Origin: Cyanidioschyzon merolae
Taxonomy: Eukaryota
Direction: 5' to 3' (one strand)
Assembly: GCA_000091205.1 (NCBI GenBank)
Contig: AP006501.2
DNA: 64,000 bases
Shown: one piece after another, positions 16,301 to 54,538 of the stretch
How positions within the stretch are numbered: the stretch's first letter is position 1
Layout: every line of letters begins with the position of its first letter
Notes under the pieces: generated by a model
The model's database searches: none
What the model was told of the DNA's origin: nothing
The model's input: the letters and a program-made list of their open reading frames with translations, nothing else
Position numbers and translations under genes: made by a program

Positions 16301-19300
16301 TCACTCATCCTCGTTGTCGGCGTCTTCCACCTCATGTTCAAGAAGACTACCGGCCATAGACAAGATCTCTACCTCGCCTGACTTGAGCCGTGCTAGAGTC
16401 TGGGCATATGACGACATGGCATGGGTCTCGTTGCCGCCAAGATGGTCTCGTACCCGACAGGTCTCAAGAACGTCCTCGAATGCAAGCAAACGCGTTCGCA
16501 ATCGTTCAATCTGATACTTGTCTTGCACAAGGATTTCAAAGAATAGTATCGCAGTATCTCTGGATATGCGGCTGGATGATCCCACAATCGAGATGCCCTC
16601 ACTCGAGATCGTACCTGCAATCCGTGACAGTAGACCAGGGCCATCGCGCGCCATCAGCGCGAGGCGCACTGGATAGCGTGAACGCGGCGCGCACCAGCGC
16701 ACGCTCACGCATGCCTCGGGATCACCGCGGAGGCTCGCGAGGCAGCGCACGCAGCGGAGGCGATGGACTTCAAAGGCGGCGGGTACTCCGTGGCTTGCCG
16801 GCCGAATTCGGATCGCAACAATACGATCGCCTGGTACGGGATTGCAGCAGCACGCAGCGAAACACTCTGGGTGAATGTCCTCACACGCTTCAGCTGCATT
16901 ACTTGCACCACTGGACAAGGTTCGACTTGAAGACGAATCCGTTCCAGGTTGACGCTCACGTTCAGGAAGTGAGCGTTCTAGGTATCGCTCAGCGTCCTTT
17001 TCTGGAAATTCGGCTGCTTCGAGGGTCTGGTAATTGGCTGGCGGATCGCGAGCACTCGACCTCAAGTAAAGAGGACTTGTTTCCTCTTCCGCAAATGTTC
17101 CATCGATTTCTGTATCAGGGACGCCAGTGTCAGCTGCAGCGTGCACATCGTTGTTACTTGCTGCAGTTGTATGCAGCTCTTCAAGAGTGCGGATGCGATC
17201 TGGATCAATATCCCGACAAAAATGGCATAAAATTTTTGCGGCAGCTGTTAATCCTCCGAATCGATGCACATAAACGAGCAGATCTTCCAAACATCGGATT
17301 TCAAGGGCTCGGGCCGGTGCGCAAACTTTCGGCACCAGTATAGGGAGGGCTGATTCCAAGACCAAGTCATTTGGAATCTCGTTCTCGTCCACACAAAGAT
17401 GCCGCGCTGCTGCTTGAAGAAGCTCTCTACCTCGCTCGCATGCCTCCTTCACTTCACGAGATCGAAGGAATCGGCGAATCTTCTGCTTGGCAGTGCGTGA
17501 ACGCGCGTAACGAAGCCACTCGCGGCTAGGCCCAGGTGCAGCCGGCGATGTAATGATTTTGATGCTATCCGCATTGCTGAGCTCGTAATCGAGCGGCACA
17601 AACCGGCCGGCTACACGAGCCCCGATCATTTGATTTCCTACGTCTGAGTGAATATGGTAGGCAGCATCTACGACAGTAGAGCCTTTCGGAAGATCCAAAA
17701 TGTAATTTTTCGGCGTGAATACGTAGACTCGATTCCCCAGGAGATCCTTCTGAACCGCATCAACACAGTCCTTGGAGTTCCCCGAATATTCCTTGCAGTA
17801 CTCCAGAATGTTGCGGAGCCAGTCTTCTGAGTGTTTTTGCCAGTGGTTTTGCGGTGAATGCAGCGTCCCATTTCCTGCCGCTTGTTGTCCACTTCGGAGC
17901 CTCGTTTCTGGCCAGAATTCCATAGCAATACCATATTCTGCTTGAACGTGCATGCTATCTGTGAAGATCTGCACCTCCACGGGGTGGAATCCACCCTTCG
18001 GACCCAGAAGCACCAGCGTGTGTAAACTCTGGTAGCCATTCGGTTTCGGATACGCAACAAAATCCTTCACATGCCCTGGAAATGGTCGGAAAAGCGAATG
18101 TACACGCCCCAGGATATGATAGCAGATATTTCTACCGAATGAAGGATCATAGTGCTCCTCGCTGAGTCCGACAATAATTTGCACAGTAGCGAGGTCATGG
18201 ATATTTTCCAGCCGTGCACCCTGCAAAATTCTTTGGTAGATGGAGAACAGATTTTTGAGAGCTACCTTCGTGCAGATCTCCCGCACCAAGGGTTTCAAGA
18301 TAGAGTCGTTCTCCAGAGAATCCACTAGAGCGTCCGCCGCGTGAGCCAGATTCATCTCAAGGTTCGTGCGATCTTTGTATATTCGCACTTGTTCGGAAAG
18401 TAGGCCATACTCTTTTGGATGCAAAAAGCGGAACGATAAGTCTTCCAACTCGGACGCTATTCGAGCCAGCCCGAGACGATGTGCGAGCGGCACAAATATC
18501 CCCAAGGTCTCCTGCGCGATGCTCTGCTGCTTGAGTGGTGGCATATGCTCCAAAGTTCGCATATTATGGAGTCGATCTGCCAGCTTCACGACTATAACCC
18601 GAATATCCTCCGCCATAGAGACAAACATGCGACGGATATACTCTGCCTGTTGCTCCTCTTTGCTGGATTTCCGAAAGTTCGGAGCTGCTCCGTTCGGCGA
18701 GTGCTCGGTCACAGTGCCGTTCGCGACTGTAGCCCTAATCTCGAAGTTCTGGTCAAGAGTTGAGGCGTCTATTTCTTCGCCTCCAGCCAGGTCATGATCG
18801 AGCCGTAAGCCCTTGAACTTGCTCCGAACTGCTGCAGCTGCGGCAGTTGCTGCCGCGGCTGCCGCTGATGCCGCTGCAGCAATCATGGAGACCGGAGCCA
18901 TGAGTGCACCATTGGCACCGCTAACAGCGTTGCTCGGTTTCATCTTTCTGGCTATTTTGGAGACTTTGGTTTCCGATTCAACAATATTTCGAACAACATG
19001 GCCAAAAAGACTTTCAACAGCATCAAGAGTGAGGTCTGTGTCCTCGACGGTATCGTGTAAGAGCCCAGCGATGAGTGTGTCAACGTCCATCCGAAGTTCC
19101 GCGAGAAGAAGAGCAACTGCGACGGGATGTGTGATGAAGGGCTCACCAGACCGACGAAGCTGCCCACTGTGCGCCGCAAATGCCACTTCGAGGGCACGGT
19201 GCAGACTCTCTATGGCCTCCTTGTCAAGGTAGTTCGCCTTTTCCCGTAAGCTGTGGAAAGACTGTGTAAACAACTCCCTCTCCGCGTGTGTAAGCGTCCG

Positions 19301-19540
19301 AGGCTTGCTCTCTGGAGAAACACCATCTAAGCTGCCTTTCGTGATCTGAAAGTCACTACCCGAGAGCAACAGGTCCTTCAAGACTTTTCGACAACGGGGA
19401 CGACGAATAGTTGGTCTCTCGAAGCGTCTTTGATTCGGAGACCAAAAGAGCGTCTTCGTTGTACTCAGATTGGTTGCGTAATTGTTGCTCTCGCGATAGC
19501 TCCTGGGAGCGTACACTGAAATGAAAGAAGGGCACTCCAT
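16301..19540 (-). CDS. RSH: RelA/SpoT homologue (RSH), a (p)ppGpp synthetase/hydrolase with HD, synthetase, TGS and ACT domains; possible organellar presequence; internal poly-Ala insertion
   Basis: HD motif FITHPVAVALLLAE..LIAGLLHDTVEDTDLT, synthetase GYQSLHTLV, TGS VYVFTPKNYILDLPKGSTVVDAAYHIHSDVGN, and a C-terminal ACT-like region. Confidence 0.9.
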   Translation of the reverse strand: MECPSFISVYAPRSYRESNNYATNLSTTKTLFWSPNQRRFERPTIRRPRCRKVLKDLLLSGSDFQITKGSLDGVSPESKPRTLTHAERELFTQSFHSLREKANYLDKEAIESLHRALEVAFAAHSGQLRRSGEPFITHPVAVALLLAELRMDVDTLIAGLLHDTVEDTDLTLDAVESLFGHVVRNIVESETKVSKIARKMKPSNAVSGANGALMAPVSMIAAAASAAAAAATAAAAAVRSKFKGLRLDHDLAGGEEIDASTLDQNFEIRATVANGTVTEHSPNGAAPNFRKSSKEEQQAEYIRRMFVSMAEDIRVIVVKLADRLHNMRTLEHMPPLKQQSIAQETLGIFVPLAHRLGLARIASELEDLSFRFLHPKEYGLLSEQVRIYKDRTNLEMNLAHAADALVDSLENDSILKPLVREICTKVALKNLFSIYQRILQGARLENIHDLATVQIIVGLSEEHYDPSFGRNICYHILGRVHSLFRPFPGHVKDFVAYPKPNGYQSLHTLVLLGPKGGFHPVEVQIFTDSMHVQAEYGIAMEFWPETRLRSGQQAAGNGTLHSPQNHWQKHSEDWLRNILEYCKEYSGNSKDCVDAVQKDLLGNRVYVFTPKNYILDLPKGSTVVDAAYHIHSDVGNQMIGARVAGRFVPLDYELSNADSIKIITSPAAPGPSREWLRYARSRTAKQKIRRFLRSREVKEACERGRELLQAAARHLCVDENEIPNDLVLESALPILVPKVCAPARALEIRCLEDLLVYVHRFGGLTAAAKILCHFCRDIDPDRIRTLEELHTTAASNNDVHAAADTGVPDTEIDGTFAEEETSPLYLRSSARDPPANYQTLEAAEFPEKDAERYLERSLPERERQPGTDSSSSRTLSSGASNAAEACEDIHPECFAACCCNPVPGDRIVAIRIRPASHGVPAAFEVHRLRCVRCLASLRGDPEACVSVRWCAPRSRYPVRLALMARDGPGLLSRIAGTISSEGISIVGSSSRISRDTAILFFEILVQDKYQIERLRTRLLAFEDVLETCRVRDHLGGNETHAMSSYAQTLARLKSGEVEILSMAGSLLEHEVEDADNEDE
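18829..18888. repeat. (GCN)n trinucleotide microsatellite encoding a poly-Ala tract inside the RSH gene
   Basis: gctgcagctgcggcagttgctgccgcggctgccgctgatgccgctgcagc encodes AAAASAAAAAATAAAAAV on the minus strand. Confidence 0.85.
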
Positions 19541-20399
19541 AACTCAGGCCAGCAGCCCTGTCGAGAGCCAAACGTCAGGTCTTCCCAAGCACAGCCTGTC
19601 CCAGAGGTAGCGTCCTCCAAAGGAGAACAACAGTTGGATTCGAGCTCCGTCCGAGACCGATTAACTCTCTAGATTGTACATACCGCTGCGAACGGCGCTA
19701 TCATGGATTCCGTCACGCGCGTCTGGGCCGCGATGGAAGCGAATTTCGCGAGGGCGCGATTTTTCTTTAATCATTGACGAAATGTTTACCTGGGCCAGCG
19801 TTCTCCGATTATGCGCATTTTTCTTTTCTTACTTTTTTTGTGTTATTTTTCAGTGCGCGGTGAAGTATCCACCAAATGCCCTACCTCCAAGTTACATCAC
19901 CTATACTTATTCTCGGATATTCTGGTCGTTTCATACGTCCTATCGTGTGCCGAGCCTGCGGCATGCGACCGCAATGGCGCCAATAGCGCCGGTGCAGTCG
20001 CTGCACGGAGACAGAACGGCGTTGGCGAACTGCGAGGGCGCGATGGGGACTTCCTGTACTTCACCTCAACTGTATTCCATCCTATGTGAATGTTACCATA
20101 TGCTTTTTCGCAGTTTTATAGCATATGCGTTCGAATCGCGTACATTTGAAGGGACAAAAAAACCAAGGGACGCTATGGACATGGAATTCGGGGATCCTGG
20201 AGGCCCGGTGTCGCTGGCTGCCGGAGAAAAGGGAAAATAGTAACAAGCCCAGGGAACGGTAGAAGACGAAGAAGCAGAAGCAGAAGGCCAGACGTCAGAA
20301 GCGACTCGAAAAATGACGCAACTACGAGAATTTCGTGGAAGCCTTTCTTCGACGCAATATCAAGGATCCCTAAAAGCAAAAGAAGCAAGAGGCCAACAG

Positions 20400-22220
20400 A
20401 AACAGTGTCGCGTCCCACTTCATGAGTGTTTGTAACGCTTCCCTAGAAAAGATGCATTTTGTGAGGGACATGTACCACGACGTAGCGGATACCAAAACAG
20501 TCAAAGTTCCGGAAGAATTTTTCACGGTTACCTCCATCTGGCACCTGATGGCTGCCACAGGGGAAATGTCGGGGAGGAACGATCCAGTGCACGCCTTCTA
20601 CGAAAACTATCCCTTCTGCAGCATCAACGGTACTCGATGCAGGGCTGACTCGGGTATTTACACTTACGAGGCGATAGAGTATCTCACGAACCTGGGGAAC
20701 CAAACAATCGTAAACCACGAACGGTTCATCAAAGGCTGCATCTTTGCGCTCTACTCGGCCTGTCTCATAGGGTGGGTGACCATCATCGATAGCTCGACTA
20801 GAGATCGCCAGTATGAATAAGAGATCGAATTCTTCGACGAGGAGACATCACACAGGAGCACTACTGAAGGTTCTGTGATCCGTGCGGCTATTAAAGAGCA
20901 ACGTGGGGCCTCGAGGCTAGCGGATCAGCAGAAAACGTATCAGATATGAAAAAACATGAAAAGGAATTTTATCCCCTATCCTGCGCTATGTCGTATTTTT
21001 GAACAGAGAACTCGAGCGCAGGGCCAAAACGGAGCAGGGTGTGGAAGAAAATGAGGAGTCGATGGGGCGGCGGACTGCGCCTTTGGGGAAGCGCTTCAAA
21101 ATCGTACTGTTATGCAACATCAAGTCATATTTTGTGAAAATCGACCCCAGAGTCCTTTACGGCACACTGAAGGAGGTAAGTTCGGATTTCGATGTAAGCA
21201 ACTTGGAATTTACGGGCGAAAACCTGGAGACTCATTGGAAGCACATCTTCGATTTCAAACGTCTCAAAATGAGCAAGAAAAAGGTATTCAAGGAGATGAT
21301 CGAAAGCGATGGAGTATCCATACGCGTTGACTACAGGTGCTTGAAGGTGGATCGTCCTGTTTTGTCCTCGATATCGCGGGTGACGAAGCGTGACGAAATG
21401 AATGATGCGGACCCTACGACGTAGGAGGTGCAGGCGAAGGACCTCGTCGCCGGCGTGGACCGTGGGAACACGAATATCATGACCATTGCTGTTTCCATGC
21501 ATGGGAAAAATGCAAGGGCTCCCATCGCACAGGTGCAGCAAATGGAGAGCATAACCTCTGGACTTGTGACGACGCGGTTAACGACTTTTGCAATGAAACC
21601 CGCAGCGTATGGCACATTTACCTGAGCGGTTATACTCAGACCAGTGGATTTTGGAGTACATGTGCCAGCAACCCATTTTGTTATTGTTTCTTTTGCTCCC
21701 AGGCATTCAAAGAAAGCAATGGATCCCTTAGATTCGATAATTGTGGAGAAGAGACCTCAAACTGTCACTTTTAGCCTGCGAGCAATGATCTGACTCGTTC
21801 AATTCGGTCATTCTGCCATCAGCAGGTGGATGGATCACCTTTATCGTCGTCTTTGACTTGAACTTCGTGCATGAAAGGCAAAACTTAACAAACTCCCTCA
21901 CATAGACAGAATCGGCATCGATCCGTTCCACTCCATACACTCTCGCAGAAATTCTGCCGAAGAACCCAAATCGTGTGGAGTCCCCAGTCCTTTGATGCGA
22001 GGGATGATGAAGAGACACGAATGGACGAAGGAAAAAGCATGCTTCTTTGGGAGTTAATTGCGTGTTTGACGGGCCATTACCGACTCTGTACCGATGTAGA
22101 AGGCTTTTTCCAGAAGCGATATGTTTCGGCCTCTTACGATGAGACCTCTTTCGGAAGAAATGCGAAAGATGTTGATGAATACTTCACGAAGAAGGACAAC
22201 AAATGTTGTTCGTAATGAAG
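20400..22220 (+). mobile_element. Degenerate TnpB/Fanzor-like element, copy 1. N-terminal region, RuvC-I and zinc-finger segments are present; the RuvC-III tail appears absent
   Basis: Homologous at nt and aa level to 46066-47940. GKRFKIVLLCNIKSYFV matches GKRFKVVPLCNIKSYFV; LVAGVDRGNTNIMTIAVS matches VVGADPGDTNIIAIAVS (RuvC-I GxDxG). 21973-22215 (ACLTGHYRLC..KRYVSASYDE) matches copy 2's AGCWASKKWC..RRFATIPIDE. Confidence 0.65.
20999..21625 (+). pseudogene. Fanzor/TnpB-like nuclease ORF fragments of copy 1, interrupted by an in-frame TAG at ~21422
   Basis: ORFs 20999-21424 and 21428-21625 are in the same frame, separated by a stop; the RuvC-I motif lies in the second piece. Confidence 0.6.
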
Positions 22221-24552
22221 AGACAAGCTAGAATAATGACGACATCAGCCCATGCGCAGATTCCATCGAGTGGTAGTACGCAGGTCGCCAAACCTAGGGG
22301 ATCCCTCAGCAACCCATGCATCCTCGGGGCGCTATGTGGCACCTCCATTGTATATTTTTCTTGATTTGAGATGAAGTTGCTTTCCATAACTCTCTAGCGA
22401 TCAAGGAATAAGCAGCTGAGATAAGCGTTGAGCTGCCCTACATATCGGTCCATTCTTGCATGCAAAATCCGGTCGAGTGCGTCCTCTCGATTGCTATACG
22501 ATATTTTCTCGGCCTCGAATTCATAGACGAGACGTTTGCGTCCGTAACAAAGCAGTTCTTCGATAGATCCTTCTTCAACAAGTAATTCTCTACCTTAACC
22601 AGCTTTCAAATGCCCTGTGGCTCTTCCGATCTTTCGGACAAGGGTGTGCAAAAGCGCGCTCTGGCAGTGGAAGTGCCCGCGGCGAAGAAGATGCAAGAAG
22701 GTCACGGAGCATAGTAGAGACACATCTGCATTGTGGTTAGCGTCCGTCCCGCCGTCCTTCTAGTGTATCCAAGTCCCCGGGAGAATAAGATTACAAATAT
22801 AGCTACCGGATCTATGCTACTCTGCTAAGAAAAAGAAAAGGCGAGGAAGCAGAAGAACAAGCGACCAGACAGAGAAAGATACTGTCTGAAAGAAGAGGAG
22901 GAATAGGAAGGGATAACAGTAGGACACGGATTCAATCTTAGAATACCTTTAAGGTCTCTCTGCTAAAAATTGCCAAGAGGATATTTTTCCAATCGTTGAG
23001 ATTAAGGACGCCGTTAGGGACCGTATTGCACCTTGCTCGAGGACAATTCACCAGGCCTGCATAACATTGACACATCTCGTCAATGAATTGCTCGGCGTTC
23101 CAGGTGCGGAACTCCAAGGTACCCGCATTCCAATGGAATTTTTCGATCAAATATTCGTGCCAGAACTGAGACCCGGGACAGAAGCTGCGATACGACCTGA
23201 TATATCCAGAGCTCTAAATCATCATGAACCGGGCGGAATAGACACCAGGGGGCATACCAATATCGGGAATTTCAGTAGCTAGACCTCCATCTCGACGCTC
23301 TGCTTACGGTATTGATCTGAGAGGGATGATTTGTGCGCTTCTCTCACGGTATATGATGGTTCGGATGGCGCATGAGGACGATCCTTGGCTGGGATACCTG
23401 AGACGGTGCTGGTTTCGCCGCAAGTCTTGTTTGTATGGAGGTAAAACGTGCATTTGCGAAATTCGGGAATGGAAGAAATAGAAAATATCTGATAAGTTGC
23501 GTTGTTCGGGGGTTGCCTATGTCGCTTAACTTGCCGAAGAGCGCAAGGGCTCCACCCCTGCTCCTTCACAAAAAGCGCACAATGAGTGAAGGAATCGCTT
23601 CTGTTCGATTCCAATCGATGCTTTTGAGAGAACACTGACGCATCATGAGCTCGAGTGCACGCTGGAAAAGGTACAGAAACAAAGGGGGAAACAGAGCCGA
23701 ATGCAAGTGATGATACACAGTAAGTTGATCGAACTTCAAACGGCAAGGGAATCGAAGTAAAGAGGCTTGCTATGGATAATTTCACTAGGATCCATGAGCG
23801 TAAGCATGTCCTGCACCAGGACTTGAATGCTTCGAGAATCATCCGGAAATGTCTCGTACTTTCGGAACTTCCTGCCGCTGCTGGCGAGCGACGATTCAAG
23901 GGAATCATTTAGCGCTCAGTCTGGGCATTCTGATGAAACGTTGAGAAGCACGGATGAAAAACGTGAGTCGCCCGGAGAGATTGGAAGTGATTCCCGCCTG
24001 GAGCGAGTCACTGGTATGGCACAGTTCAGCAAACCACCAAGACCTAAACTCGATATCCATTCACGGAAAACGGTTTTCCATGAGACTAGCTAAACGATAT
24101 CTCGAGTTCGACTATTTGGTTTTAAATAGTATATTTTAACTTGTCCTGGCAAGCATGATCGTTTCTTCGAACGCCCTGCTGGGCATGAAGGTAGCCTCTA
24201 CATACAGCGGAGCTATGAGTCGGCGAGCTTCTCTCAGCCTCGTGAAAAGCCATTCAACACAAATACGTTTCAAATCAATGGCATGCCTCAGATTATCTTC
24301 ATCATACACAGGTCATCCACTACATACAGCATGAGTAGGCATTGATACTCCGCCAATCCTCCGTTTGGAGCGTCTGCCTGGAACGCCAAGCGTATCTTTC
24401 TCCGGGTGGCACAGTGTGCGGCCCAGCACGAGGACCAGATCCGACCGAAATGCACAGCGAACAGAATGTTTCGCAGCTGTTCCGCGATGTGTCGCAAGCT
24501 CTAGCAACGGGAGAGCTGTCGCAGATCGCACTTTTGACTAACTATTACTTCA

Positions 24553-34309: not shown

Positions 34310-35054
34310 CTAGACACTTGGACGAACGCTTCGCGGTCCTCGGAGCTCACAACAGAAGCTCACATGTCTGGAGCGCACACTGCCGTCTCAAAATGCAGCC
34401 GCCGTTGTGGCTGCACTGCACAAGCTTCACACCGGGCATTTGCGGCGACTAGAAAACGTAGAGGCTTTGAGGCAGCAAAGGAAAGAACAGAATATGACCG
34501 CTAACTAGCTATTCGCCAACACATTCTTCCCGCCTCTATCGTAAGGTTTTCAAGTGGGAAAAGGTTTTCGTAGTTCAGAAAGCTTACCTTCTATGCGCAC
34601 CGTCCGGCTAGTGCTTCATGCTACCAGTGGCGGGTGCAGTGGCGCGACCTGATCAGCTCGTTTGCAAAGCAATTTCACCTGGGACTAGCAGTGGGTAGGC
34701 AGCGTATCTCCGTCACCGTGGTCTCGGTGGTCTCCTAGCATAACGCCTCGCGCTGCAGAAGGCAGCACGTCTTTCTACCCAGCTTGCTGGCTCCCAGAGT
34801 GACGATGAATCCCTATTCCGTGTCGGGTGAACGACGCCTCGAGCCGACACCCTCAGCGGCATGGCAGAGCCGTTCTGTCTTCGTGCTGCATTCGCGCTAG
34901 TGGTTTAGGCGCTCCGGAGGGTGCGCACGGTAGGATCGGCGCACGAGAGAATGTACGGAAAATTCCAAAGGCGGGCGTTTTCTCGTAGCTATTTAAAAAA
35001 GAGGCGAGAAAAGGAAGCACTTGAAGTGAGCTGTGAAGTTGCATCAAGACTACT

Positions 35055-38000
35055 TCAAGTATATGCATCGAACTTCATAGATCGTGGTTCTAGAGAAATC
35101 TTACCACAAAATGAACCGCTTCGTTTCCTCTTAGTTTTCATTTTGCGAAACGCTTTTCCTTGGTATGCGGAGAGTTCCGCCCAGGTTTTCTGGGCATGCT
35201 GATCTCTCGGGGTGGGATCAATGAGGGTAACATCCGAAGAAAAGAAACGTTCCTCTTGAATCCTCCGGAAAGGTGTGTTAGCCTGGGGGACTCTCTTCGC
35301 TCTGTCGGATTTTGGGGCAGCCTGTGGGTGAGGATTCAGCTTGGAGCTAGAGGCACCAGCCACGTCGCACTGACTTTTGTCACCAGAGCCTTCTACAATG
35401 ATGCTTCCTGCTGAGTCATCTCTGGGGTCGGACAAAATGGTTTGCGTGGATGACTGACTTTTGCGCCCCATCGCAGACACGGGTTTCGTTACCCGAGGCG
35501 CCATATCAGTAGATTGCGCTAGCATTCCTGGATGGGAATCAATTTGTGATGCACTGAAAGCGCTCCCTATTTGTTCGTTTGAACTGCAAGCGCGCAGTCC
35601 ATCAAATGCGATCCCATTTCCACCGTCTTCCATCGCTGCGCGCGGCTTGTATCTAGGATCCGCATCTTTGCTAGAGTGAAGTCTCTCTGGTTTCCTGAAA
35701 CCTGCGCAAACGTTTGACTTTTGAGCTTTCGTATGGCAATTCTCAGTTAAGGAATGCCAGCTTGAACAAGGAGATCCGTGCTCTCTACGCGTTCGTTTGT
35801 CTAAAGGTTTCCCCGTATCTCTTTTCTGATGATTTTGGATCTGATTTGCACAGACTGGCAAGTCTCCTCCGTCTTGCGCATGAAACCGATATTGCTCTTC
35901 TAAAGAATCCCATTTCATCGTTTTGTTCTGGCCGACCATGAGGCTAGAGTTATGCGGTTTCGACGTATTCGAGGGTCCACACTGGACGTCGTCACTTATA
36001 CATGATTCCGTAACAGCAGCCGGAGCTGAATCCGTGCCTATTAGTACTTTTCGCTGGGAAGTACGCTCAGTGCCTTCGGCAGGGTTCTGTGATTGAGCAA
36101 CGTTCCCTTTCCGAGAGCTCGCATCCCTAGAAGCTCTGCCATTCGCGATTTCACTTCCAGCATGGTTTGTCCGAACCCCGCGATTCCGAGGGGCCTTGCC
36201 CTCACCTTCAGGGATGTGTTGCGTTGCATGTCGTCCTAATGGATTCCTTCCATGGAGCTCTCCATGAAAATATTGCGACCCGCTGGACGCAGCATTCCCT
36301 GTTCTCTGTTCCTGCACTTTCCCGGAAGCAAGATCTTCAGCATGGTAGCTGTTCATTTGCATTTTCATCTCACGCGATTCTAATGATGGACTTATTCCAT
36401 CAGTATTACCATTCGCGAGAGATCCATTGATTTCATGATAATGCCTAGATGGCTCGCATGAGCTGCCTCCAGTGGAATGCACTGATATGTTATCATTTCT
36501 GTCACAATGAGATGCTATCAGCTGATGGTCTGAGGTGTTGGGAAGGGAATCCTGGAATCGTTCCTCTATCCTGCCAGGAGCCGTGCGACTTGCTGATATC
36601 TTTCCAGGCGGAACTGGTAAATTCGGCTCGCTGCTGGTTCCAAAGTCACTCATATTCATACGCGCTGAGCATCTACTGCAGCCGCTGCTCGATGACGACT
36701 CAGAAGTCGACTCCGAAGTGGAGGACGCAACACCTGCCGTCCTCGGTGGCACCTTTCGCGCCTCCGTAGCCTCTAGTGAGCTCGATGAGCTCGATGAGCT
36801 CGACGATGTTGCCGTCGACGCTAGCGCACGCTTCGCTGAGGCCCGATGTGGCGGTTGGACGCTCCCAGCGCGCCTTGTGACTCGCTCGCCGTCGCTCGAT
36901 GACGACTCAGAAGTCGACTCCGAAGTGGAGGACGCAACACCTGCCGTCCTCGGTGGCACCTTTCGCGCCTCCGTAGCCTCTAGTGAGCTCGATGAGCTCG
37001 ATGAGCTCGACGATGTTGCCGTCGACGCTAGCGCACGCTTCGCTGAGGCCCGATGTGGCGGTTGGACGCTCCCAGCGCGCCTTGTGACTCGCTCGCCGTC
37101 GCTCGATGACGACTCAGAAGTCGATTCCGAAGTGGAGGACGCAACACCTGCCGTCCTCGGTGGCACCTTCCGCGCTTCCGTAGCCTCTAGTGAGCTCGAT
37201 GAGCTCGATGAGCTCGACGATGTTGCCGTCGACGCTAGCGCACGCTTCGCTGAGGCCCGATGTGGCGGTTGGACGCTCCCAGCGCGTCTTGTGACTCGCT
37301 CGCCGTCGCTCGACGACGACTCAGAAGTCGACTCCGAAGTGGAGGACGCAACACCTGCCGTCCTCGGTGGCACCTTTCGCGCCTCCGTAGCCTCTAGTGA
37401 GCTCGATGAGCTCGATGAGCTCGACGATGTTGCCGTCGACGCTAGCGCACGCTTCGCTGAGGCCCGATGTGGCGGTTGGACGCTCCCAGCGCGCCTTGTG
37501 ACTCGCTCGCCGTCGCTCGATGACGACTCAGAAGTCGACTCCGAAGTGGAGGACGCAACACCTGCCGTCCTCGGTGGCACCTTTCGCGCTTCCGTAGCCT
37601 CTAGTGAGCTCGATGAGCTCGATGAGCTCGACGATGTTGCCGTCGACGCTAGCGCACGCTTCGCTGAGGCCCGATGTGGCGGTTGGACGCTCCCAGCGCG
37701 CCTTGTGACTCGCTCGCCGTCGCTCGATGACGACTCAGAAGTCGACTCCGAAGTGGAGGACGCAACACCTGCCGTCCTCGGTGGCACCTTTCGCGCCTCC
37801 GTAGCCTCTAGTGAGCTCGATGAGCTCGATGAGCTCGACGATGTTGCCGTCGACGCTAGCGCACGCTTCGCTGAGGCCCGATGTGGCGGTTGGACGCTCC
37901 CAGCGCGCCTTGTGACTCGCTCGCCGTCGCTCGATGACGACTCAGAAGTCGATTCCGAAGTGGAGGACGCAACACCTGCCGTCCTCGGTGGCACCTTTCG

Positions 38001-39527
38001 CGCCTCCGTAGCCTCTAGTGAGCTCGATGAGCTCGATGAGCTCGACGATGTTGCCGTCGACGCTAGCGCACGCATCGCTGAGGCCCGATGTGGCGGTTGG
38101 ACGCTCCCAGCGCGCCTTGTGACTCGCTCGCCGTCGCTCGATGACGACTCAGAAGTCGATTCCGAAGTGGAGGACGCAACACCTGCCGTCCTCGGCGGCA
38201 CCTTCCGCGCTTCCGCAGCCTCTAGTGAGCTCGATGAGCTCGATGAGCTCGACGATGTTGCCGTCGACGCTAGCGCACGCTTCGCTGAGGCCCGATGTGG
38301 CGGTTGGACGCTCCCAGCGCGCCTTGTGACTCGCTCGCCGTCGCTCGACGACGACTCAGAGGTCGACTCCGAAGTGGAGGACGCAACACCTGCCGTCCTC
38401 GGTGGCACCTTCCGCGCTTCCGTAGCCTCTAGTGAGCTCGATGAGCTCGACGATGTTGCCGTCGACGCTAGCGCACGCTTCGCTGAGGCCCGATGTGGCG
38501 GTTGGACGCTCCCAGCGCGCCTTGTGACTCGCTCGCTGTCGCTCGATGACGACTCAGAAGTCGACTCCGAAGTGGAGGACGCAACACCTGCCGTCCTCGG
38601 TGGCACCTTCCGCGCTTCCGCAGCCTCTAGTGAGCTCGATGAGCTCGATGAGCTCGACGATGTTGCCGTCGACGCTAGCGCACGCTTCGCTGAGGCCCGA
38701 TGTGGCGGTTGGACGCTCCCAGCGCGCCTTGTGACTCGCTCGCCGTCGCTCGACGACGACTCAGAGGTCGACTCCACCAGGACCACAGATTCAGGAAGCA
38801 ATTTCAGAGAAGATGATGAGAATACATCTGGTTGGGGTCGTTCATTATCTAAGACGCTGCCTTTTTTCCGGGGAAACGCCGACGCGTAGAATCGCGACTC
38901 GGCTGAGCCGACAGCACCGGAGTCTGCTCTCGCGCGCCTCTCACGCTCTTGTGGAGCTGACTCGTTTTTTGAGATCGCCACTGCTTCCGAGACAGCGCCC
39001 GGCCCACCAGAATCTGGAATAGACTGAGCAGGGGCCCTTACTGAAACCTTTTCACTTCGCCTTCGACCGGTTAGGGCCGCACCTGCGGCTGACAAACTCA
39101 ATACAGGAGACACGCTCCATTTCGCATCTGTTTCAGAGGCCCATTTGTATGTCCGAGCGTCGATCCCACTTTCTTCCAGTAATCTTGCGTCTAACTCTTC
39201 TATTGCAAAGCTCAAGCGCTTTGATCTCTGTATCGAAAGTCCAGCAGTATGCGAACTGCTCGAGTCGCTTGAGTTGTCTGCAATTTCAGAGCTTGATTCG
39301 GCTCTATGAATAGTCGCATCACATTCGCAGCGTGCACGCTTCTTTGCAAGCTTTTCCGCTGATTCATGCGCCAAAGATTCAGCTGTCCGTTTTAAACCTA
39401 CACTGTGAAGAAACTGAAACAGCGCACCGAGAAGGCCACTGTTTCGCAAACGACCTCCATGCAGTCGGGAATCGCCAGCTTCCTCTTCTGATAGGTGCTT
39501 GTCCCCTTGAGAACATTTTGATTCCAT
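35055..39527 (-). CDS. LisH-domain protein with a long Ser-rich region containing ~10 tandem 69-aa repeats
   Basis: N-terminal LisH-like motif LLGALFQFLHSVGLKRTAESLAHES. Repeats read ...ESTSESSSSDGERVTRRAGSVQPPHRASAKRALASTATSSSSSSSSSSLEATEARKVPPRTAGVASSTS. Unique flanks of >500 aa support this strand as coding. Confidence 0.75.
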   Translation of the reverse strand: MESKCSQGDKHLSEEEAGDSRLHGGRLRNSGLLGALFQFLHSVGLKRTAESLAHESAEKLAKKRARCECDATIHRAESSSEIADNSSDSSSSHTAGLSIQRSKRLSFAIEELDARLLEESGIDARTYKWASETDAKWSVSPVLSLSAAGAALTGRRRSEKVSVRAPAQSIPDSGGPGAVSEAVAISKNESAPQERERRARADSGAVGSAESRFYASAFPRKKGSVLDNERPQPDVFSSSSLKLLPESVVLVESTSESSSSDGERVTRRAGSVQPPHRASAKRALASTATSSSSSSSSSSLEAAEARKVPPRTAGVASSTSESTSESSSSDSERVTRRAGSVQPPHRASAKRALASTATSSSSSSSLEATEARKVPPRTAGVASSTSESTSESSSSDGERVTRRAGSVQPPHRASAKRALASTATSSSSSSSSSSLEAAEARKVPPRTAGVASSTSESTSESSSSDGERVTRRAGSVQPPHRASAMRALASTATSSSSSSSSSSLEATEARKVPPRTAGVASSTSESTSESSSSDGERVTRRAGSVQPPHRASAKRALASTATSSSSSSSSSSLEATEARKVPPRTAGVASSTSESTSESSSSDGERVTRRAGSVQPPHRASAKRALASTATSSSSSSSSSSLEATEARKVPPRTAGVASSTSESTSESSSSDGERVTRRAGSVQPPHRASAKRALASTATSSSSSSSSSSLEATEARKVPPRTAGVASSTSESTSESSSSDGERVTRRAGSVQPPHRASAKRALASTATSSSSSSSSSSLEATEARKVPPRTAGVASSTSESTSESSSSDGERVTRRAGSVQPPHRASAKRALASTATSSSSSSSSSSLEATEARKVPPRTAGVASSTSESTSESSSSDGERVTRRAGSVQPPHRASAKRALASTATSSSSSSSSSSLEATEARKVPPRTAGVASSTSESTSESSSSSGCSRCSARMNMSDFGTSSEPNLPVPPGKISASRTAPGRIEERFQDSLPNTSDHQLIASHCDRNDNISVHSTGGSSCEPSRHYHEINGSLANGNTDGISPSLESREMKMQMNSYHAEDLASGKVQEQRTGNAASSGSQYFHGELHGRNPLGRHATQHIPEGEGKAPRNRGVRTNHAGSEIANGRASRDASSRKGNVAQSQNPAEGTERTSQRKVLIGTDSAPAAVTESCISDDVQCGPSNTSKPHNSSLMVGQNKTMKWDSLEEQYRFHAQDGGDLPVCANQIQNHQKRDTGKPLDKRTRREHGSPCSSWHSLTENCHTKAQKSNVCAGFRKPERLHSSKDADPRYKPRAAMEDGGNGIAFDGLRACSSNEQIGSAFSASQIDSHPGMLAQSTDMAPRVTKPVSAMGRKSQSSTQTILSDPRDDSAGSIIVEGSGDKSQCDVAGASSSKLNPHPQAAPKSDRAKRVPQANTPFRRIQEERFFSSDVTLIDPTPRDQHAQKTWAELSAYQGKAFRKMKTKRKRSGSFCGKISLEPRSMKFDAYT
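36687..38775. repeat. Tandem minisatellite, 207-bp unit x ~10 (one 198-bp variant), inside the LisH protein gene
   Basis: Unit starts at 36687, 36894, 37101, 37308, 37515 and so on, with >95% identity. 207 = 3 x 69, so both strands stay open. Confidence 0.95.
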
Positions 39528-46065: not shown

Positions 46066-47940
46066 TTGCTCTCCGTTCTTCACGTGCAGTATTCTCAAAT
46101 CACGCGTTCTTCATGTTTTAGTCTTTCTTCTTCAAGGTACTTCGGGGGTTCTGCAATGTGCCCCGATGGATTGGTGAGGAACAACATGAGATGTCGACCT
46201 TTGACGACTTGTTCACAAGGTCATGCCGAAAGTCAGCTGAACCTTCCACGCCAAGTAATAAATTCTGTACGAAAGACATGTCCTTCTCTATTTGCAAATT
46301 ACGAAGAAACCGTATTTTACAACAGCACAATGGTTCCCAGAGAATATGCTCCCAGCGGCTTTCGTCTCTTGTGCTTTAATGGAAACGGGTCTTGGACCCG
46401 GGCCTCTCTCGAAAAGGCATTTGGGCCATCGTCACTGCCATCACCAACGATCGGCAGCATGAACAGGCGAAAGAATTTTTCGACAAGAAGACATCACGCA
46501 GGGGAAAGAATGAAGCTTATGTGATCGGTTCGGCTATTCAAGAGTACCGTGCGGTCTTGGGGCTAGCGAATCTCGCAGAAAAGTCATCAGATATGAAAAA
46601 AAGGTGATGAAATGCGCTGTCCCCTCATCCTGCGCTATTTCTTGTTCTTTGACCGAGAACTCGAAGACAAGGCCGGAAAGGAGCTGGGTGTAGGAAAAAA
46701 AGAAGAGTCGGAGAGACAGAAGGCTGCCCTAATGGGGAAGCGCTTCAAGGTCGTTCCGTTATGCAACATCAAGTCATACTTTGTGACAATCAACTCCAGA
46801 GTCTATTTCGGCATCATGAGGGATATCTATGAGGAGTTCGGCGTAAACAGGGAGGAGTTCAGCGGCGAAAATCGGGACACGTACCGGAAGAGTATCTTCT
46901 ATTTAAAAAGTGTCAAAACGAGCAAGCAAAAGAAATTCACATGGATGGTCGAAAGCGATGAAGTATCCATGTGTGTACACTTTCGGCGCTTGAAGGCGAA
47001 TCGTCCTGTTCCGTCCTCGGCTTCGCCCCTGAGGAAGCATGCAGAAAAGAAAGAGGCGGATCCTGCTACGCAGAAAGTGCAGGATAACGACTTTGTCGTT
47101 GGCGCGGACCCAGGGGACACGAATATAATAGCCATCGCAGTATCGAAGCGTATGGTAGATGTGACTGACGGCAACTTACGTCATAAAGACATGCGTCTCT
47201 TAAAGTTCTCGAGAACGAGATATCACCGAGAATCGGGAATAATGAGTGCGAGGGAAAAAATTTAGGAAGAGAATTCAGGAGTGAAAGAGCGCCTGGAAGC
47301 TATGAGCGAGGTGACTAGCCGAAAAGCGGACTTTCGAGCTTTTCTGAAATTCATGGAAGTTCGCGTTGCTCTTTGGGAGGCGCTGTGGAAAGAGTATACA
47401 AAGCCACGATGGGCTCGTTTGTGAATGAGCTTGTACTGTGTGAAGCAGCGGGCATTCGCCAACTTTTTCAATGAGTTGAGTGCCTTGAAAGAGGACGAGA
47501 GTCAAAGGCACGTAGTAGCATTCGGAGCAGGGTGCTGGGCATCGAAAAAATGGTGTACACCAGCTCCAACGACGAGAACGTACAAGGAGCGTGCACGGCG
47601 TTTTGCCACAATACCAATAGATGAGTTCCAATCGTCCAGTATTCACCATGAGTTGGGATGTACACTTCAGACGGTCGAGATGGATTAGTGTCAGCGGCGC
47701 GGTGACGATATAAAACAGTACGGAGCGCTGACGGAAGAGCAAATGGAAAGGACGGCGAAAGTTCGAGGATTGCTTACGTTAGTGAGTACAACCACCGGGA
47801 GGAAACGTGTGAAGTTTGTGAACAGGGAATTTAACGCCGCCATCAATATAAGGAGATGTGCGGTGATGGAAATAAGACCTCCAGAGTTGACAAGAGTGAA
47901 TTTTTGGGAGAACCTCTCAAATTATACGAGAAGAAATTGA
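46066..47940 (+). mobile_element. TnpB/Fanzor-like RuvC nuclease gene, copy 2. Full-length architecture but broken by in-frame stops and one frameshift
   Basis: Same-frame ORFs 46066-46524, 46612-47265, 47425-47688 and 47743-47940. RuvC-I VVGADPGDTNIIAIAV, Cys/His cluster GCWASKKWC..HHELGC, and a C-terminal VNREFNAAINIRR (RuvC-III signature with D to E). Confidence 0.7.
46612..47265 (+). pseudogene. Largest intact segment of Fanzor/TnpB-like copy 2 (N-terminal/WED-like region plus RuvC-I)
   Basis: 217-aa ORF ending at a stop. The sequence continues in another frame (EENSGVKERLEAMSEVTSRKADFRAFLKFMEVRVALWEALWKEYTKPRWARL), which indicates a frameshift. Confidence 0.6.
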
Positions 47941-48058
47941 AGCCAGTAGTAAGTGGCCAGTCTAAAAAGGCTGGGAAGCGTCTGCACATCGGCTGGAGAC
48001 GTCTAGCGTAGAGCGCGAGGCGCGCAACTACTGCACCGCTGGTGGCAACGTCTGACTT

Positions 48059-48799
48059 TTGAGGCGTTCGTTATTGCCAGCGTTGGCTGTGATGGAGGGC
48101 CCGGAGGCAAACCCTTCGTGTTCAGAGGTCTTGACACCCTCAAGCGCACTGCCTAGAGCTGAAGCGACACGCACGGCGCTCGGGTGGTTCTGGTTCCGGG
48201 TGCGGACGTGTTTTGGACAAGGTGACGCTGCGACTCAAAAATTAGAGCAACGATCTTTCGTTCAGCGACTGTTACCTCTGTGCACACTAGTGCTCACTTT
48301 GTGCTTAGCGTTCACGCTTTGGAGGGCTTTGGTCCTGTGGACCTACTCCGAGTCCCCAGTCGTTGTGGTGCTCAGTGGCAGCATGGAGCCAGGTATTCAC
48401 CGCGGGGATATCCTATTTCTTTACAACCGCACCGCAGCTGAAAGGCCTTTACGTGTCGGTGATATGGTTGTTTACAGTTTGCGTGACCGCAGTCTGCCGA
48501 TAATCCATCGCATTATTGAAGTTCATAGACGAGCTTCCGAGAGCATAGGCGATGGCACAAGGGCATCAAACTCTAGTATCCTGGAATATTTCCTTACAAA
48601 AGGGGATAACAACTTCGGTGACGATCGAGGTCTCTACCCTGCTGACAAGAAATGGCTGCTACGCAGTGACGTCATTGGACGGGTTATCTTTACTATCCCG
48701 AAAGTTGGCATGCTGACGATCCTGATGAATACACACAAATGGTTAAAATACGCCCTGATAGGACTGCTGTCACTCACCCTGCTCTTCATATCAGAGTGA
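48059..48799 (+). CDS. SEC11: Signal peptidase complex catalytic subunit SEC11; the true start is probably an internal Met
   Basis: SESPVVVVLSGSMEPGIHRGDILFL (Ser-His catalytic region) and a C-terminal GDNN..DDRGLY motif. Confidence 0.88.
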   Translation: MRRSLLPALAVMEGPEANPSCSEVLTPSSALPRAEATRTALGWFWFRVRTCFGQGDAATQKLEQRSFVQRLLPLCTLVLTLCLAFTLWRALVLWTYSESPVVVVLSGSMEPGIHRGDILFLYNRTAAERPLRVGDMVVYSLRDRSLPIIHRIIEVHRRASESIGDGTRASNSSILEYFLTKGDNNFGDDRGLYPADKKWLLRSDVIGRVIFTIPKVGMLTILMNTHKWLKYALIGLLSLTLLFISE

Positions 48800-52960: not shown

Positions 52961-53314
52961 TCAATAAATGTATTCACGCGCAGACGATTCCCAGCCTTTT
53001 TCGACCGGCAGACTGCTGTCGGCCGGTCGAAAAATGTACACTTCGGGTCTGCGAGGCTTCCACACGAAGTTAGATCGCCTCAGCTCTGCGGCCCTCGTCT
53101 CCAGCACCGCAAATCGTCTGATATTAATAGCAGTGCTGAAGTCTCGGTTCACAAACTCCATGCGTTTGTTGCCGCTGGTTGAACTCACTAGTCTAAGGAT
53201 TCCTCGAACTCGAGCGCTCAGTGCCATTTGGTGCTCTGTCAACTCTGCGTGATTTTCTATCGCCGAGCCGCTCCACCGGCTCCTCTCCATCTCGTTCTTC
53301 TGAAGTATACGCAC
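52961..53314 (-). pseudogene. TnpB/Fanzor-like C-terminal fragment, copy 3, carrying the RuvC-III motif
   Basis: LSARVRGILRLVSSTSGNKRMEFVNRDFSTAINIRRFAV aligns with copy 2's TAKVRGLLTLVSTTTGRKRVKFVNREFNAAINIRRCAV. A TGA stop lies immediately upstream, so it is a fragment. Confidence 0.65.
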
Positions 53315-54538
53315 AGTTCATCCAAAGGGTTTTTTTCCTGAAACGAACGTACTTCCTCCCGTCCTTAAGTCAGGAGTTTCCCGGAGGATCGAAAGACTTG
53401 GAAAGTAAAGACAAAATGTGTCCCGATGTGTTACCGTGTGCTGAAAGCTTCAGCGATTCGCCCACTAGAACGATCACTACGTTTCACGATAGAAAACACT
53501 CCTTCGATGAGCTTTAACGACCGAGCGCATGCAGAGATAGAAAGCAGCTCTTCCCCGATTGCATTGGTAAAAGCTCAAACGCAAGAAGAATGGTGAAATA
53601 CCACGTTTTCCAATAGAATGACGTCGCTGGACGTCAGGAGAAAGTCTTCAATGATTCGCCAAAGTGGTCGGTGCTGTTGTATGAGCCTTTTCGATGAGCG
53701 AAACTGAGGCCGCAAAATGAATCTACTGCAGTTAGAACAGATAATGATGTCCTCGTTCTCATCGAGCTCGATCGTACATACAATGCGATTCCTCTCCGCA
53801 AATACTCATACACGCTTCGAGCGTATCGTTTGAAGTAAGTCATATTGACTGAAGAAACAAACCGACGTCCCCGTGCTTCATACCGATCGCGACGTGTCAG
53901 GACTTGTGTTCGAGCGATTCGGCGGAAGATGGCCATGCATGCATTTGGACTTTTTTTGCGACTGGATCTCAGTATTTTGATGACCACATATACAGTCTGG
54001 TGTGAAACAGGAACACCAGTAGTAAATCGTATCGACGCCTTTTGCTTTCCCTAGAGTGATCAACGGATCGTCTTCTAGCGTTGAGAGCAATCATGCTTTA
54101 AGAATATCGATTTTGGCACGAAATGCTTTCAATCTTTTCTTTCAGTGTTCCACCACCATCTGTGTTCTCCGCTACGAATGAGCTGAAGGTAAATGCAGTC
54201 CTCGTTGCAATTTTCAGTAAATGATATATCTTGTAAGCAATTCGTCTGTGATCTATGCGGTACATTGATCTGTAATATCCATCTCCATCTAGACAACACA
54301 GCGGAGCCGAAACAGAATTGAGTTGAAAGCCGCTCGCGTACGGCACTGAGCGCCGCGCACGCAATTTCGGGATTCCTTGCGCGTTGCAGACCGCACTCTG
54401 CAGTTGAACGCGTTGAGGCCAGTGGACGCATTCATAGTGTCGAGTGCGTGGACGTATTGTTTGCATAAAAAGCGAGCTCTCTATGAGGTGTTTACGTAAG
54501 TCACTGCTAGATTTGTAGCTCCTGGACTCCTCTATTCG

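What the first reader, a model, noticed from the sequence alone, without database searches (positions are those of the whole stretch)
20400..22220. Second, diverged TnpB/Fanzor-like copy (copy 1), 3'-truncated
- About 65% aa and 70-80% nt identity to copy 2 over the N-terminal region.
- Shared blocks: tcagatatgaaaaaa...atcctgcgctat upstream, then GKRFK(I/V)V(L/P)LCNIKSYFV, the RuvC-I block and the Cys cluster.
- No RDxNAAxNI tail could be found in any frame downstream of 22215.
- The divergence means this is an old family, not a single recent insertion.
Basis: seen in the sequence. Interest (0 to 1): 0.7.

Follow-up and report, generated by a model that had tools for sequence, protein, structure and literature searches.

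The report
Dead Fanzor1 transposon copy (CMe-1A)
This is a broken, tail-less copy of CMe-1A, a Fanzor1-carrying transposon family of the red alga Cyanidioschyzon merolae that was described in 2013, so it is an ordinary genomic fossil and not a new finding.

Summary
The window is Cyanidioschyzon merolae 10D nuclear DNA: three flanking proteins are identical to BAM82752, BAM82758 and BAM82760.

The two-copy similarity is real. It runs 20803-21495 vs 46449-47144 at 73.6% nt, but only 51% aa, not 65%.

Both copies belong to CMe-1A, the Fanzor1 element family published by Bao & Jurka (2013): about 150 copies, each about 80% identical to the consensus. I took that consensus from the paper's supplement.
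- Copy 1 is 19772-21512, not 20400-22220.
- It keeps the element's 5' terminus.
- It has an internal deletion of about 590 bp in the non-coding 5' part.
- It matches consensus 837-2250 at 77%.
- It stops just after the RuvC-I motif. The last 919 bp are missing: RuvC-II, the TNB region, RuvC-III and the 3' end, where Fanzor guide RNAs are normally encoded.
- It carries 5 premature stops and at least 8 frame-breaking indels.

The claimed shared "Cys cluster" is not supported: 21513-22860 matches nothing.

A degenerate RuvC-III tail (QDLNASRII, 23826-23843) does lie downstream. It belongs to a separate, much older relic (22862-23905).

Fanzor1 identity of the family is confirmed by a profile search against solved structures and by the predicted fold.

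Verdict: already known, non-functional, low interest.

The parts
19772..20040 (+). 5' terminal module of the CMe-1A element. It corresponds to the part of the consensus shared with the short element TE-N2_CMe.
   Evidence: - Published CMe-1A consensus 60-245 aligns to 19858-20040, and 84-228 to 19880-20024 at 78%.
- Consensus 1-18 resembles 19772-19789.
- The same roughly 290-nt repeat recurs in 32 of 80 related loci.
- Short-read assemblies of related strains break at 19768 and 19813.
20041..20100 (+). Junction left by an internal deletion of about 590 bp of the element's non-coding 5' region (consensus about 246-836).
   Evidence: Consensus 246-836 has no counterpart between the two aligned blocks.
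20101..21512 (+). Remnant of the Fanzor1 gene: the end of the 5' UTR plus codons 1 to about 448 of 734.
- Start codon at 20175.
- Premature stop codons beginning at 20258, 20312, 20369, 20816 and 21420.
- At least 8 indels whose length is not a multiple of three.
- GKRFK block at 21086-21136.
- RuvC-I block at about 21443-21496, with the Asp codon at 21458-21460.
   Evidence: - blastn to published CMe-1A 837-2250: 77.2% over 1424 columns.
- Codon-aligned comparison: 438 codons, 58.9% aa identity, with the stops and indels listed.
- nhmmer with the family DNA profile: E=1.9e-257 and 1.7e-23.
- Protein HMM hits 20260-21505.
21513..22860 (.). It is not part of the element.
   Evidence: - No blastn match in 80 family loci with 4-kb flanks.
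- No Pfam hit in six frames.
- Smith-Waterman scores against the family C-terminal half fall within the shuffle range.
- No Rfam family and no tRNA.
22862..23905 (+). Separate, older, internally deleted Fanzor1 relic ('copy 3').
- RPDR motif at 22862-22873.
- N-terminal piece at 22998-23300.
- C-terminal piece at 23320-23799, with IPIDAFERT (RuvC-II remnant, Glu lost) at 23614-23628.
- QDLNASRII (RuvC-III remnant) at 23826-23843.
   Evidence: - tblastn and HMM hits.
- Only 57% nt identity (nhmmer E=1e-9) and 35-37% aa identity to family members, against 77% nt for copy 1.
46396..48062 (+). It is also a pseudogene, with stops in the codons ending at 47265, 47424 and 47688 plus frameshifts.
   Evidence: blastn to CMe-1A 1486-3163 at 83.7%. 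Codon analysis. Frame translation.
34482..34960 (-). Solo copy of the 5' module (TE-N2_CMe-like).
   Evidence: blastn to CMe-1A 133-636 at 74.4%, E=1e-91.
52976..53321 (-). Fragment of a further CMe-1A copy: the C-terminal end of the ORF, with FVNRDFSTAINIRR, plus part of the 3' end.
   Evidence: blastn to CMe-1A 2749-3020 and 3055-3088. tblastn. nhmmer E=2e-42.

Best explanation
Window 19772-21512 is a dead copy of CMe-1A, the Fanzor1-encoding transposable element family of Cyanidioschyzon merolae.

What intact copies look like:
- They are about 3.2 kb long.
- They encode a 734-aa Fanzor1, a eukaryotic relative of bacterial TnpB.
- In characterised Fanzors this protein is an RNA-guided DNA endonuclease. 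Its guide (omega RNA, or fRNA) is transcribed from the 3' end of the element.

What this copy retains and lacks:
- It keeps the element's 5' terminus.
- It has lost about 590 bp of the non-coding 5' region.
- It carries the N-terminal 60% of the gene, up to and including the first catalytic motif (RuvC-I).
- It ends there. The 919 bp that hold RuvC-II, the TNB region, RuvC-III and the 3' terminus are gone.
- What remains has 5 premature stop codons and several frameshifts.

Consequence: it can make neither the nuclease nor a guide RNA. It is a neutral relic, fixed in the sampled populations.

Shown here: family identity, extent, lesions and the Fanzor1 fold.
Inferred from other Fanzors: RNA-guided nuclease activity of intact family members and the 3' location of their guide RNA.
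For: - Host: three flanking proteins are identical to C. merolae 10D entries BAM82752.1, BAM82758.1 and BAM82760.1, on a 1.28-Mb record.
- Published family: Bao & Jurka 2013 (PMC3627910) describe CMe-1A as about 150 copies, about 80% identical to consensus, 3169 bp, with no TIRs and undetermined TSDs. Its 5' 635 bp equals TE-N2_CMe.
- Direct match: the published consensus from their supplement aligns to 20101-21512 at 77.2% and to 19880-20024 at 78%.
- Lesions: 5 premature stops and at least 8 indels not divisible by three in 438 aligned codons. Mismatches are spread almost evenly over codon positions (0.235/0.212/0.297), against 0.096/0.082/0.19 between two intact members.
- Truncation: homology ends at 21512 in blastn, nhmmer and protein HMM searches.
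- Fanzor1 identity of the family:
  - Profile search of solved structures hits PpFz1 2e-20, SpuFz1 1.7e-12 and GtFz1 4e-7.
  - The AlphaFold model has pLDDT 82 and pTM 0.81.
  - The top seven Foldseek PDB hits are all Fanzor1, best E=1e-15 with target TM 0.72.
  - The D/E/D columns are invariant or nearly so in 78 relatives.
- No constraint: SNP density against a related strain is 9.1/kb in the copy, 9.0/kb in the adjacent spacer and 5/kb further on.
- Not annotated: none of its ORFs is a catalogued protein.
Against: - Nothing contradicts the assignment.
- The exact 5' end (19772 +/- 20) is uncertain. Consensus positions 19-59 align poorly, and related copies of the 5' module extend to 19754.
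- No empty site was found, so target-site duplications cannot be read. All three related-strain contigs covering this region carry the copy.
- The origin of the truncation cannot be told: a deletion after insertion, or an incomplete insertion.
Confidence: 0.93

Rival explanations
1. Copy 1 is not truncated but interrupted. Its missing C-terminal part would be the Fanzor-like stretch at 23320-23905, separated from it by a 1.8-kb insertion.
For: - The stretch lies on the same strand and in the right order.
- 23320-23905 covers family residues from about 555 to the RuvC-III remnant.
- The lysine-rich N-terminal regions of the two relics are 2575 nt apart, close to one element length.
Against: - The downstream piece has its own N-terminal segment (RPDR at 22862-22873; residues 48-152 at 22998-23300). 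It is therefore a separate, internally deleted element.
- It is far more diverged: 57% nt and 35-37% aa, against 77% nt for copy 1. In this family the 3' half is, if anything, the better conserved part (copy 2: 83-85% in the 3' half against 76-79% in the 5' half).
- Residues from about 450 to 555 would still be missing.
Confidence: 0.04
2. The region encodes a functional product. This could be an intron-containing Fanzor gene whose stops lie in introns, or a domesticated N-terminal (REC-like) fragment.
For: - The host is a eukaryote, so introns are possible in principle.
- ORFs of 132 and 141 aa survive.
Against: - The stops sit inside blocks that align codon-for-codon with the consensus protein, for example TT*EVQ against TQEVQ.
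- There are several frameshifts.
- C. merolae genes almost never have introns (my own knowledge of the genome paper, not tested here).
- The catalytic RuvC-II and RuvC-III motifs are absent.
- Substitutions are spread over all codon positions.
- SNP density equals that of the neighbouring non-coding DNA.
- The ORFs are not catalogued proteins.
Confidence: 0.02
3. The similarity between the two copies is chance or low-complexity sequence.
For: None. Some lysine- and glutamate-rich stretches exist near the N-terminus.
Against: - blastn E about 1e-116 over 697 nt.
- 77% identity to an independently published consensus over 1.4 kb.
- Conserved RuvC-I motif.
Confidence: 0.005

Closest known systems
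CMe-1A / Fanzor1 'CMe-1' of Cyanidioschyzon merolae (Bao & Jurka, Mobile DNA 2013; PMC3627910)
   Same: - Same genome.
- 77% nt identity to the published 3169-bp consensus over positions 837-2250, plus the 5' module.
- The divergence is typical of the family, whose copies are about 80% identical to the consensus.
- The same 5' module is shared with TE-N2_CMe.
   Different: This copy is defective. It has an internal 5' deletion, has lost the last 919 bp, and carries 5 stops and several frameshifts. The paper notes that some copies still encode intact protein, and this one does not.
Characterised Fanzor1 RNA-guided endonucleases: SpuFz1 (PDB 8GKH, 9CEU-9CEZ), PpFz1 (9CF0-9CF3), GtFz1 (9CER-9CET). 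Saito et al. 2023 (PMC10432273), Jiang et al. 2023 (PMC10530073), Xu et al. 2024 (PMC11423790)
   Same: Intact family members share the overall fold (Foldseek E=1e-15, target TM 0.72) and the RuvC D/E/D triad. They are multi-copy and transposon-borne.
   Different: - Only 12-15% sequence identity.
- The family consensus has no CxxC...CxxC zinc-finger cysteines between RuvC-II and RuvC-III (TSYTHHELGC...C, then RGLLALVSTT).
- No guide RNA or nuclease activity has been shown for this family.
- Copy 1 retains only RuvC-I.
Bacterial TnpB of IS200/IS605 and IS607
   Same: Same superfamily: a split RuvC nuclease with the RDxNAAxNI-type RuvC-III motif in intact family members.
   Different: - Eukaryotic nuclear host.
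- Much larger N-terminal region.
- No Pfam OrfB_IS605 or Cas12f1-like_TNB hit at threshold. There are no hits for window copies or close members, and one sub-threshold hit (E=0.002) in a distant relative.
- No TnpA gene alongside.

Membership tests
CMe-1A transposable element family (C. merolae) | Nucleotide similarity to the published consensus along its length, at the family's typical divergence (about 80%) | tested here: met
   77.2% over consensus 837-2250 and 78% over 84-228. The consensus was taken from the paper's supplement.
CMe-1A transposable element family (C. merolae) | Host genome is C. merolae | tested here: met
   Three flanking proteins are identical to BAM82752.1, BAM82758.1 and BAM82760.1 of strain 10D.
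CMe-1A transposable element family (C. merolae) | Complete element with both termini (3169 bp) | tested here: not met
   The 5' terminus is present. Consensus about 246-836 and 2251-3169 are absent. This is a truncated member, not a full copy.
Fanzor1 | Sequence-profile homology to experimentally solved Fanzor1 proteins | tested here: met
   Tested for the family, not for this copy alone. A profile of 78 relatives hits 9cf0 (E=2e-20), 8gkh (1.7e-12) and 9cer (4e-7). A single sequence and a shallow profile found nothing.
Fanzor1 | Fanzor1 fold (REC/WED plus RuvC with inserted TNB) | tested here: met
   AlphaFold model of intact member P0003 (pLDDT 82, pTM 0.81). The top seven Foldseek PDB hits are all Fanzor1, and the next hits are Cas12 with E>0.006.
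Fanzor1 | Complete RuvC catalytic triad D...E...D | tested here: not met
   The family has it: D484 and E656 are invariant and D725 is at least 90% conserved. Copy 1 keeps only the RuvC-I Asp (21458-21460). RuvC-II and RuvC-III are deleted.
Fanzor1 | Zinc-finger (CxxC...CxxC) in the TNB region | tested here: inconclusive
   - By inspection of consensus A2 and the CMe-1 protein, the cysteine pairs are not present.
- The model has lower confidence there (pLDDT 52-81).
- The region is absent from copy 1.
Fanzor1 | Guide (omega/fRNA) encoded at the 3' end of the element | tested here: inconclusive
   - The family's 3' 300 nt are well conserved, and the extreme end carries palindromes that differ between subfamilies.
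- RNAalifold found no convincing consensus structure.
- There are no RNA data.
- Copy 1 lacks this region entirely.
Fanzor1 | RNA-guided DNA cleavage | not testable with these tools
   Needs biochemistry. No paper in the library tests a C. merolae Fanzor.
Bacterial TnpB (IS200/IS605, IS607) | Match to Pfam OrfB_IS605 / Cas12f1-like_TNB at the gathering threshold, and linkage to TnpA | tested here: not met
   There are no Pfam hits for either window copy or for six close members. One sub-threshold hit occurs in a distant relative. No transposase ORF was found nearby.

The most novel reading that the evidence does not exclude
The locus holds two independent Fanzor1 relics of very different age on the same strand, about 2.6 kb apart. 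In related genomes a second same-strand CMe-1A 3' end lies 3.9-4.9 kb upstream in 3 of about 48 unique loci. This could mean that CMe-1A-type elements insert preferentially next to existing copies, for example by guide-RNA-directed homing or a sequence-specific target. That would give a first handle on the unknown transposition mechanism of this TIR-less, TSD-less family.
Probability: 0.08. Interest if true: 0.5.

Novelty: already known. Interest (0 to 1): 0.08.

Why it matters
It matters little in itself. It is one of about 150 decayed copies of a family catalogued in 2013, and it cannot produce a nuclease or a guide RNA.

The useful outcomes are corrections for annotation:
- True boundaries are 19772-21512.
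- It is a pseudogene.
- 21513-22220 is not part of it.
- An unnoticed older relic lies at 22862-23905.

The family may deserve attention as a possible heat- and acid-adapted RNA-guided nuclease. Intact ORFs are present on metagenome contigs that carry the same genes, and its TNB region lacks the usual cysteines. That is a property of the family, not of this copy.

Tried and rejected
- Pfam on both window copies and on close family members: no hits. The precomputed label PF26935 is only 'DUF8286 (weak)' and appears in no paper.
- Single-sequence and shallow-profile searches of solved structures found nothing. Only the deep profile worked.
- Empty sites: all three related-strain contigs covering this region are 99.5-99.6% identical and collinear. 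No target-site duplication could be read.
- Looking for the missing 3' half in 21513-23000 gave nothing:
  - permissive tblastx against copy 2;
  - Smith-Waterman against the family C-terminal half with shuffles;
  - family HMMs;
  - Pfam in six frames.
- An 18-nt repeat at the breakpoint (21505-21522 / 23536-23553) briefly suggested an internal deletion joining to the 'KGTTPAP' region. I rejected it as chance.
- I first took the roughly 290-nt repeat at 19754-20044 for an independent element. The published consensus showed it to be the 5' module of CMe-1A.
- My own majority consensus carried frameshifts, so the codon-position counts were discarded. I used an intact ORF and the published consensus instead.
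- I considered copy 3 as a distinct Fanzor1 lineage because of its RPDR motif. Its C-terminal part carries the CMe-1-specific THHELxCTL signature, and its best hits are CMe-1A members, so it is better described as an older relative.
- Rfam and tRNA scans of 19.5-24.5 kb were empty.
- RNAalifold on the family 3' end gave no convincing structure.

Full report
**Where the window comes from.**
The large ORFs around the finding are intron-free eukaryotic genes:
- an RSH (p)ppGpp synthetase/hydrolase at 16301-19540 (-);
- ClpB at 42383-45043 (-);
- a signal-peptidase-like ORF at 48059-48799 (+);
- SufE-BolA at 48820-49782 (-).

Three of them are residue-for-residue identical to Cyanidioschyzon merolae 10D proteins BAM82752.1, BAM82758.1 and BAM82760.1, on a record of 1,282,939 bp. 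The window is therefore nuclear DNA of this red alga.

**Checking the observation.**
- blastn aligns 20803-21495 with 46449-47144 at 73.6% over 697 columns. In the coding frame this is 51% amino-acid identity over 173 residues, not about 65%.
- The quoted DNA blocks occur exactly once in each copy.
- The GKRFK...NIKSYFV block and the RuvC-I block (GVDRGNTNIMTIAVS against GADPGDTNIIAIAVS) are present.
- Similarity to copy 2 stops at about 21496-21512. Permissive tblastx of 21500-23000 against copy 2's tail gives only noise.
- Local alignment of all three forward frames against the family's C-terminal half scores within the range of shuffled controls.
- The 'Cys cluster' is therefore not shared, and 21513-22220 is not part of the element.

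**What the family is.**
- A conceptual translation of copy 2 finds 149 or more homologues, up to 752 aa long, almost all from metagenomes. They carry only a weak precomputed DUF label. Pfam gives nothing for the window copies or for close members.
- An exhaustive profile search finds 1477 relatives.
- A 78-sequence alignment of the long relatives has invariant Asp and Glu and a nearly invariant Asp at the three RuvC positions.
- That deep profile hits solved Fanzor1 proteins: Parasitella 9cf0 at E=2e-20, Spizellomyces 8gkh at 1.7e-12 and Guillardia 9cer at 4e-7.
- An AlphaFold model of intact member P0003 (pLDDT 82.3, pTM 0.81) has the seven Fanzor1 entries as its top Foldseek hits. The best is E=1.2e-15 with target-normalised TM 0.72. 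Cas12 proteins follow far behind.
- The family is Fanzor1.

**It is already published.**
- Bao & Jurka 2013 (PMC3627910) list one Fanzor1 family in C. merolae, CMe-1A. It has about 150 copies, each about 80% identical to the consensus. The consensus is 3169 bp and encodes a 734-aa protein. There are no TIRs, and TSDs are undetermined. Its 5' 635 bp is 95% identical to a separate short element, TE-N2_CMe.
- I took the consensus from their supplementary file and aligned it to the window, with this result:

| Window | Strand | CMe-1A consensus | Identity |
|---|---|---|---|
| 19880-20024 | + | 84-228 | 78% |
| 20101-21512 | + | 837-2250 | 77.2% |
| 46396-48062 | + | 1486-3163 | 83.7% |
| 34482-34960 | - | 133-636 | 74% |
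| 52976-53321 | - | 2749-3088 | 74-85% |

- A local alignment extends the 5' module to consensus 60-245 = 19858-20040. Consensus 1-18 resembles 19772-19789.
- Short-read assemblies of related strains break at 19768 and 19813. This fits a repeat that starts there.

**Anatomy of copy 1.**
- It spans 19772-21512 on the + strand.
- It keeps the element's 5' terminus and lacks consensus about 246-836, which is non-coding.
- It then runs from the end of the 5' UTR through the start codon (20175) to codon about 448, just past RuvC-I.
- Consensus 2251-3169 is missing. That part holds RuvC-II, the TNB region, RuvC-III, the stop codon and the 3' terminus.
- Codon-aligned to the consensus ORF, it shows 58.9% identity over 438 codons and five premature stops (20258, 20312, 20369, 20816, 21420). 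At least eight indels within the ORF are not multiples of three.
- Mismatches against an intact member are nearly even over codon positions: 0.235/0.212/0.297. Between two intact members they are 0.096/0.082/0.19.
- Against a related strain the copy has 9.1 SNPs/kb. The adjacent spacer has 9.0 and the following 5.6 kb has 5.2.
- None of its ORFs is a catalogued protein.
- It is a pseudogene evolving without visible constraint.

**What lies downstream.**
- 21513-22860 matches nothing:
  - not the 80 family loci fetched with 4-kb flanks;
  - not Pfam;
  - not Rfam or tRNA models.
- From 22862 a second Fanzor1 relic begins on the same strand. It has an RPDR motif (22862-22873) and residues about 48-152 (22998-23300). 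It then continues directly with residues from about 555 through the RuvC-III remnant (23320-23905).
- That second part includes IPIDAFERT (RuvC-II with the Glu lost), THHELEC and HQDLNASRIIRKC (RuvC-III remnant).
- This piece is not copy 1's tail. It has its own N-terminal part. It is also much more diverged: 57% nt and 35-37% aa. The 3' half of this family is normally the better conserved part.

**How it works, or no longer works.**
- In characterised Fanzors the protein is an RNA-guided DNA endonuclease. Its guide is transcribed from the 3' non-coding region abutting the element's right end (PMC10432273; PMC10530073).
- For CMe-1A this is inferred, not shown. Intact members have the triad and the fold.
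- Their 3' 300 nt are strongly conserved, with short terminal palindromes that differ between subfamilies. RNAalifold gave no convincing consensus structure, and no RNA or activity data exist.
- Copy 1 has lost two of the three catalytic motifs and the whole 3' end. It can supply neither component.
- All three related-strain contigs covering the region carry it at 99.5-99.6% identity. It is therefore old and fixed, and no empty site was available to define target-site duplications.

**Verdict.**
This is a Fanzor-type, 3'-truncated copy from an old family.
- The family and its presence in this genome are already in the literature.
- This copy is an ordinary relic, several details of the finding were wrong, and nothing about it is surprising.

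Noticed in passing
window 22862-23905 (+): A second, much older and internally deleted Fanzor1 relic lies directly downstream of copy 1 on the same strand. It has remnants of RuvC-II (IPIDAFERT, Glu lost) and RuvC-III (QDLNASRII).
   Followed up: yes
window 34482-34960 (-): A solo copy of the CMe-1A 5' module (consensus 133-636, 74% identity). This is a TE-N2_CMe-like short element.
   Followed up: partly
window 52976-53321 (-): A further CMe-1A fragment covers the C-terminal end of the ORF (FVNRDFSTAINIRR) and part of the 3' end.
   Followed up: partly
window 60612-61115 (+): A weak match to the N-terminal region of the Fanzor1 profile (HMM E=0.0025; tblastn 25% identity to P0158). It may be a very old relic or chance.
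   Followed up: no
window 36681-38775: A tandem array with a 207-bp period, about 10 units, 95-98% identical between units, in a stretch of 57-59% G+C. I did not examine what it encodes.
   Followed up: no
family loci L017-L096 (alignment A3); window 48040-48095: The extreme 3' end of CMe-1A carries a short palindrome. It differs in sequence between subfamilies but stays self-complementary (TTCGA-CTT-TCGAA against TTTTTC-TTTT-GAAAG). It is preceded by an almost invariant GGCG...CGCCACTACTGTACAC block. This could be a terminal hairpin of the element or of its guide RNA. RNAalifold did not pick it up.
   Followed up: partly
L049 1400-1645, L068 3355-3624, L096 3394-3671, L018 1650-1918; window 19754-20044: In several related loci the roughly 290-nt 5' module sits in the opposite orientation, 20-40 nt from the start of the remainder of the element. 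In the window, in L075 and in the published consensus it is in the forward orientation. The 5' part of the family therefore seems to exist in two orientations.
   Followed up: partly
L078 (2351-2647 and 6216-6510), L083 (2046-2342 and 5987-6282), L089 (1153-1447 and 6066-6364): Three related loci carry a second CMe-1A 3' end on the same strand 3.9-4.9 kb upstream. This echoes the same-strand pair of relics in the window.
   Followed up: no
CMe-1 protein and alignment A2 (region between RuvC-II and RuvC-III): This Fanzor1 clade lacks the usual CxxC...CxxC cysteines of the TNB zinc finger. The CMe-1 consensus reads TSYTHHELGC...C, then RGLLALVSTT. Many full-length ORFs remain open on metagenome contigs.
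   Followed up: partly
window 22096-23637 compared with L008: There are no SNPs against a related strain over 1.5 kb, between flanks that have 5-12 SNPs/kb. The RSH gene is also SNP-free. This probably reflects patchy recombination between strains, but I did not examine it.
   Followed up: no
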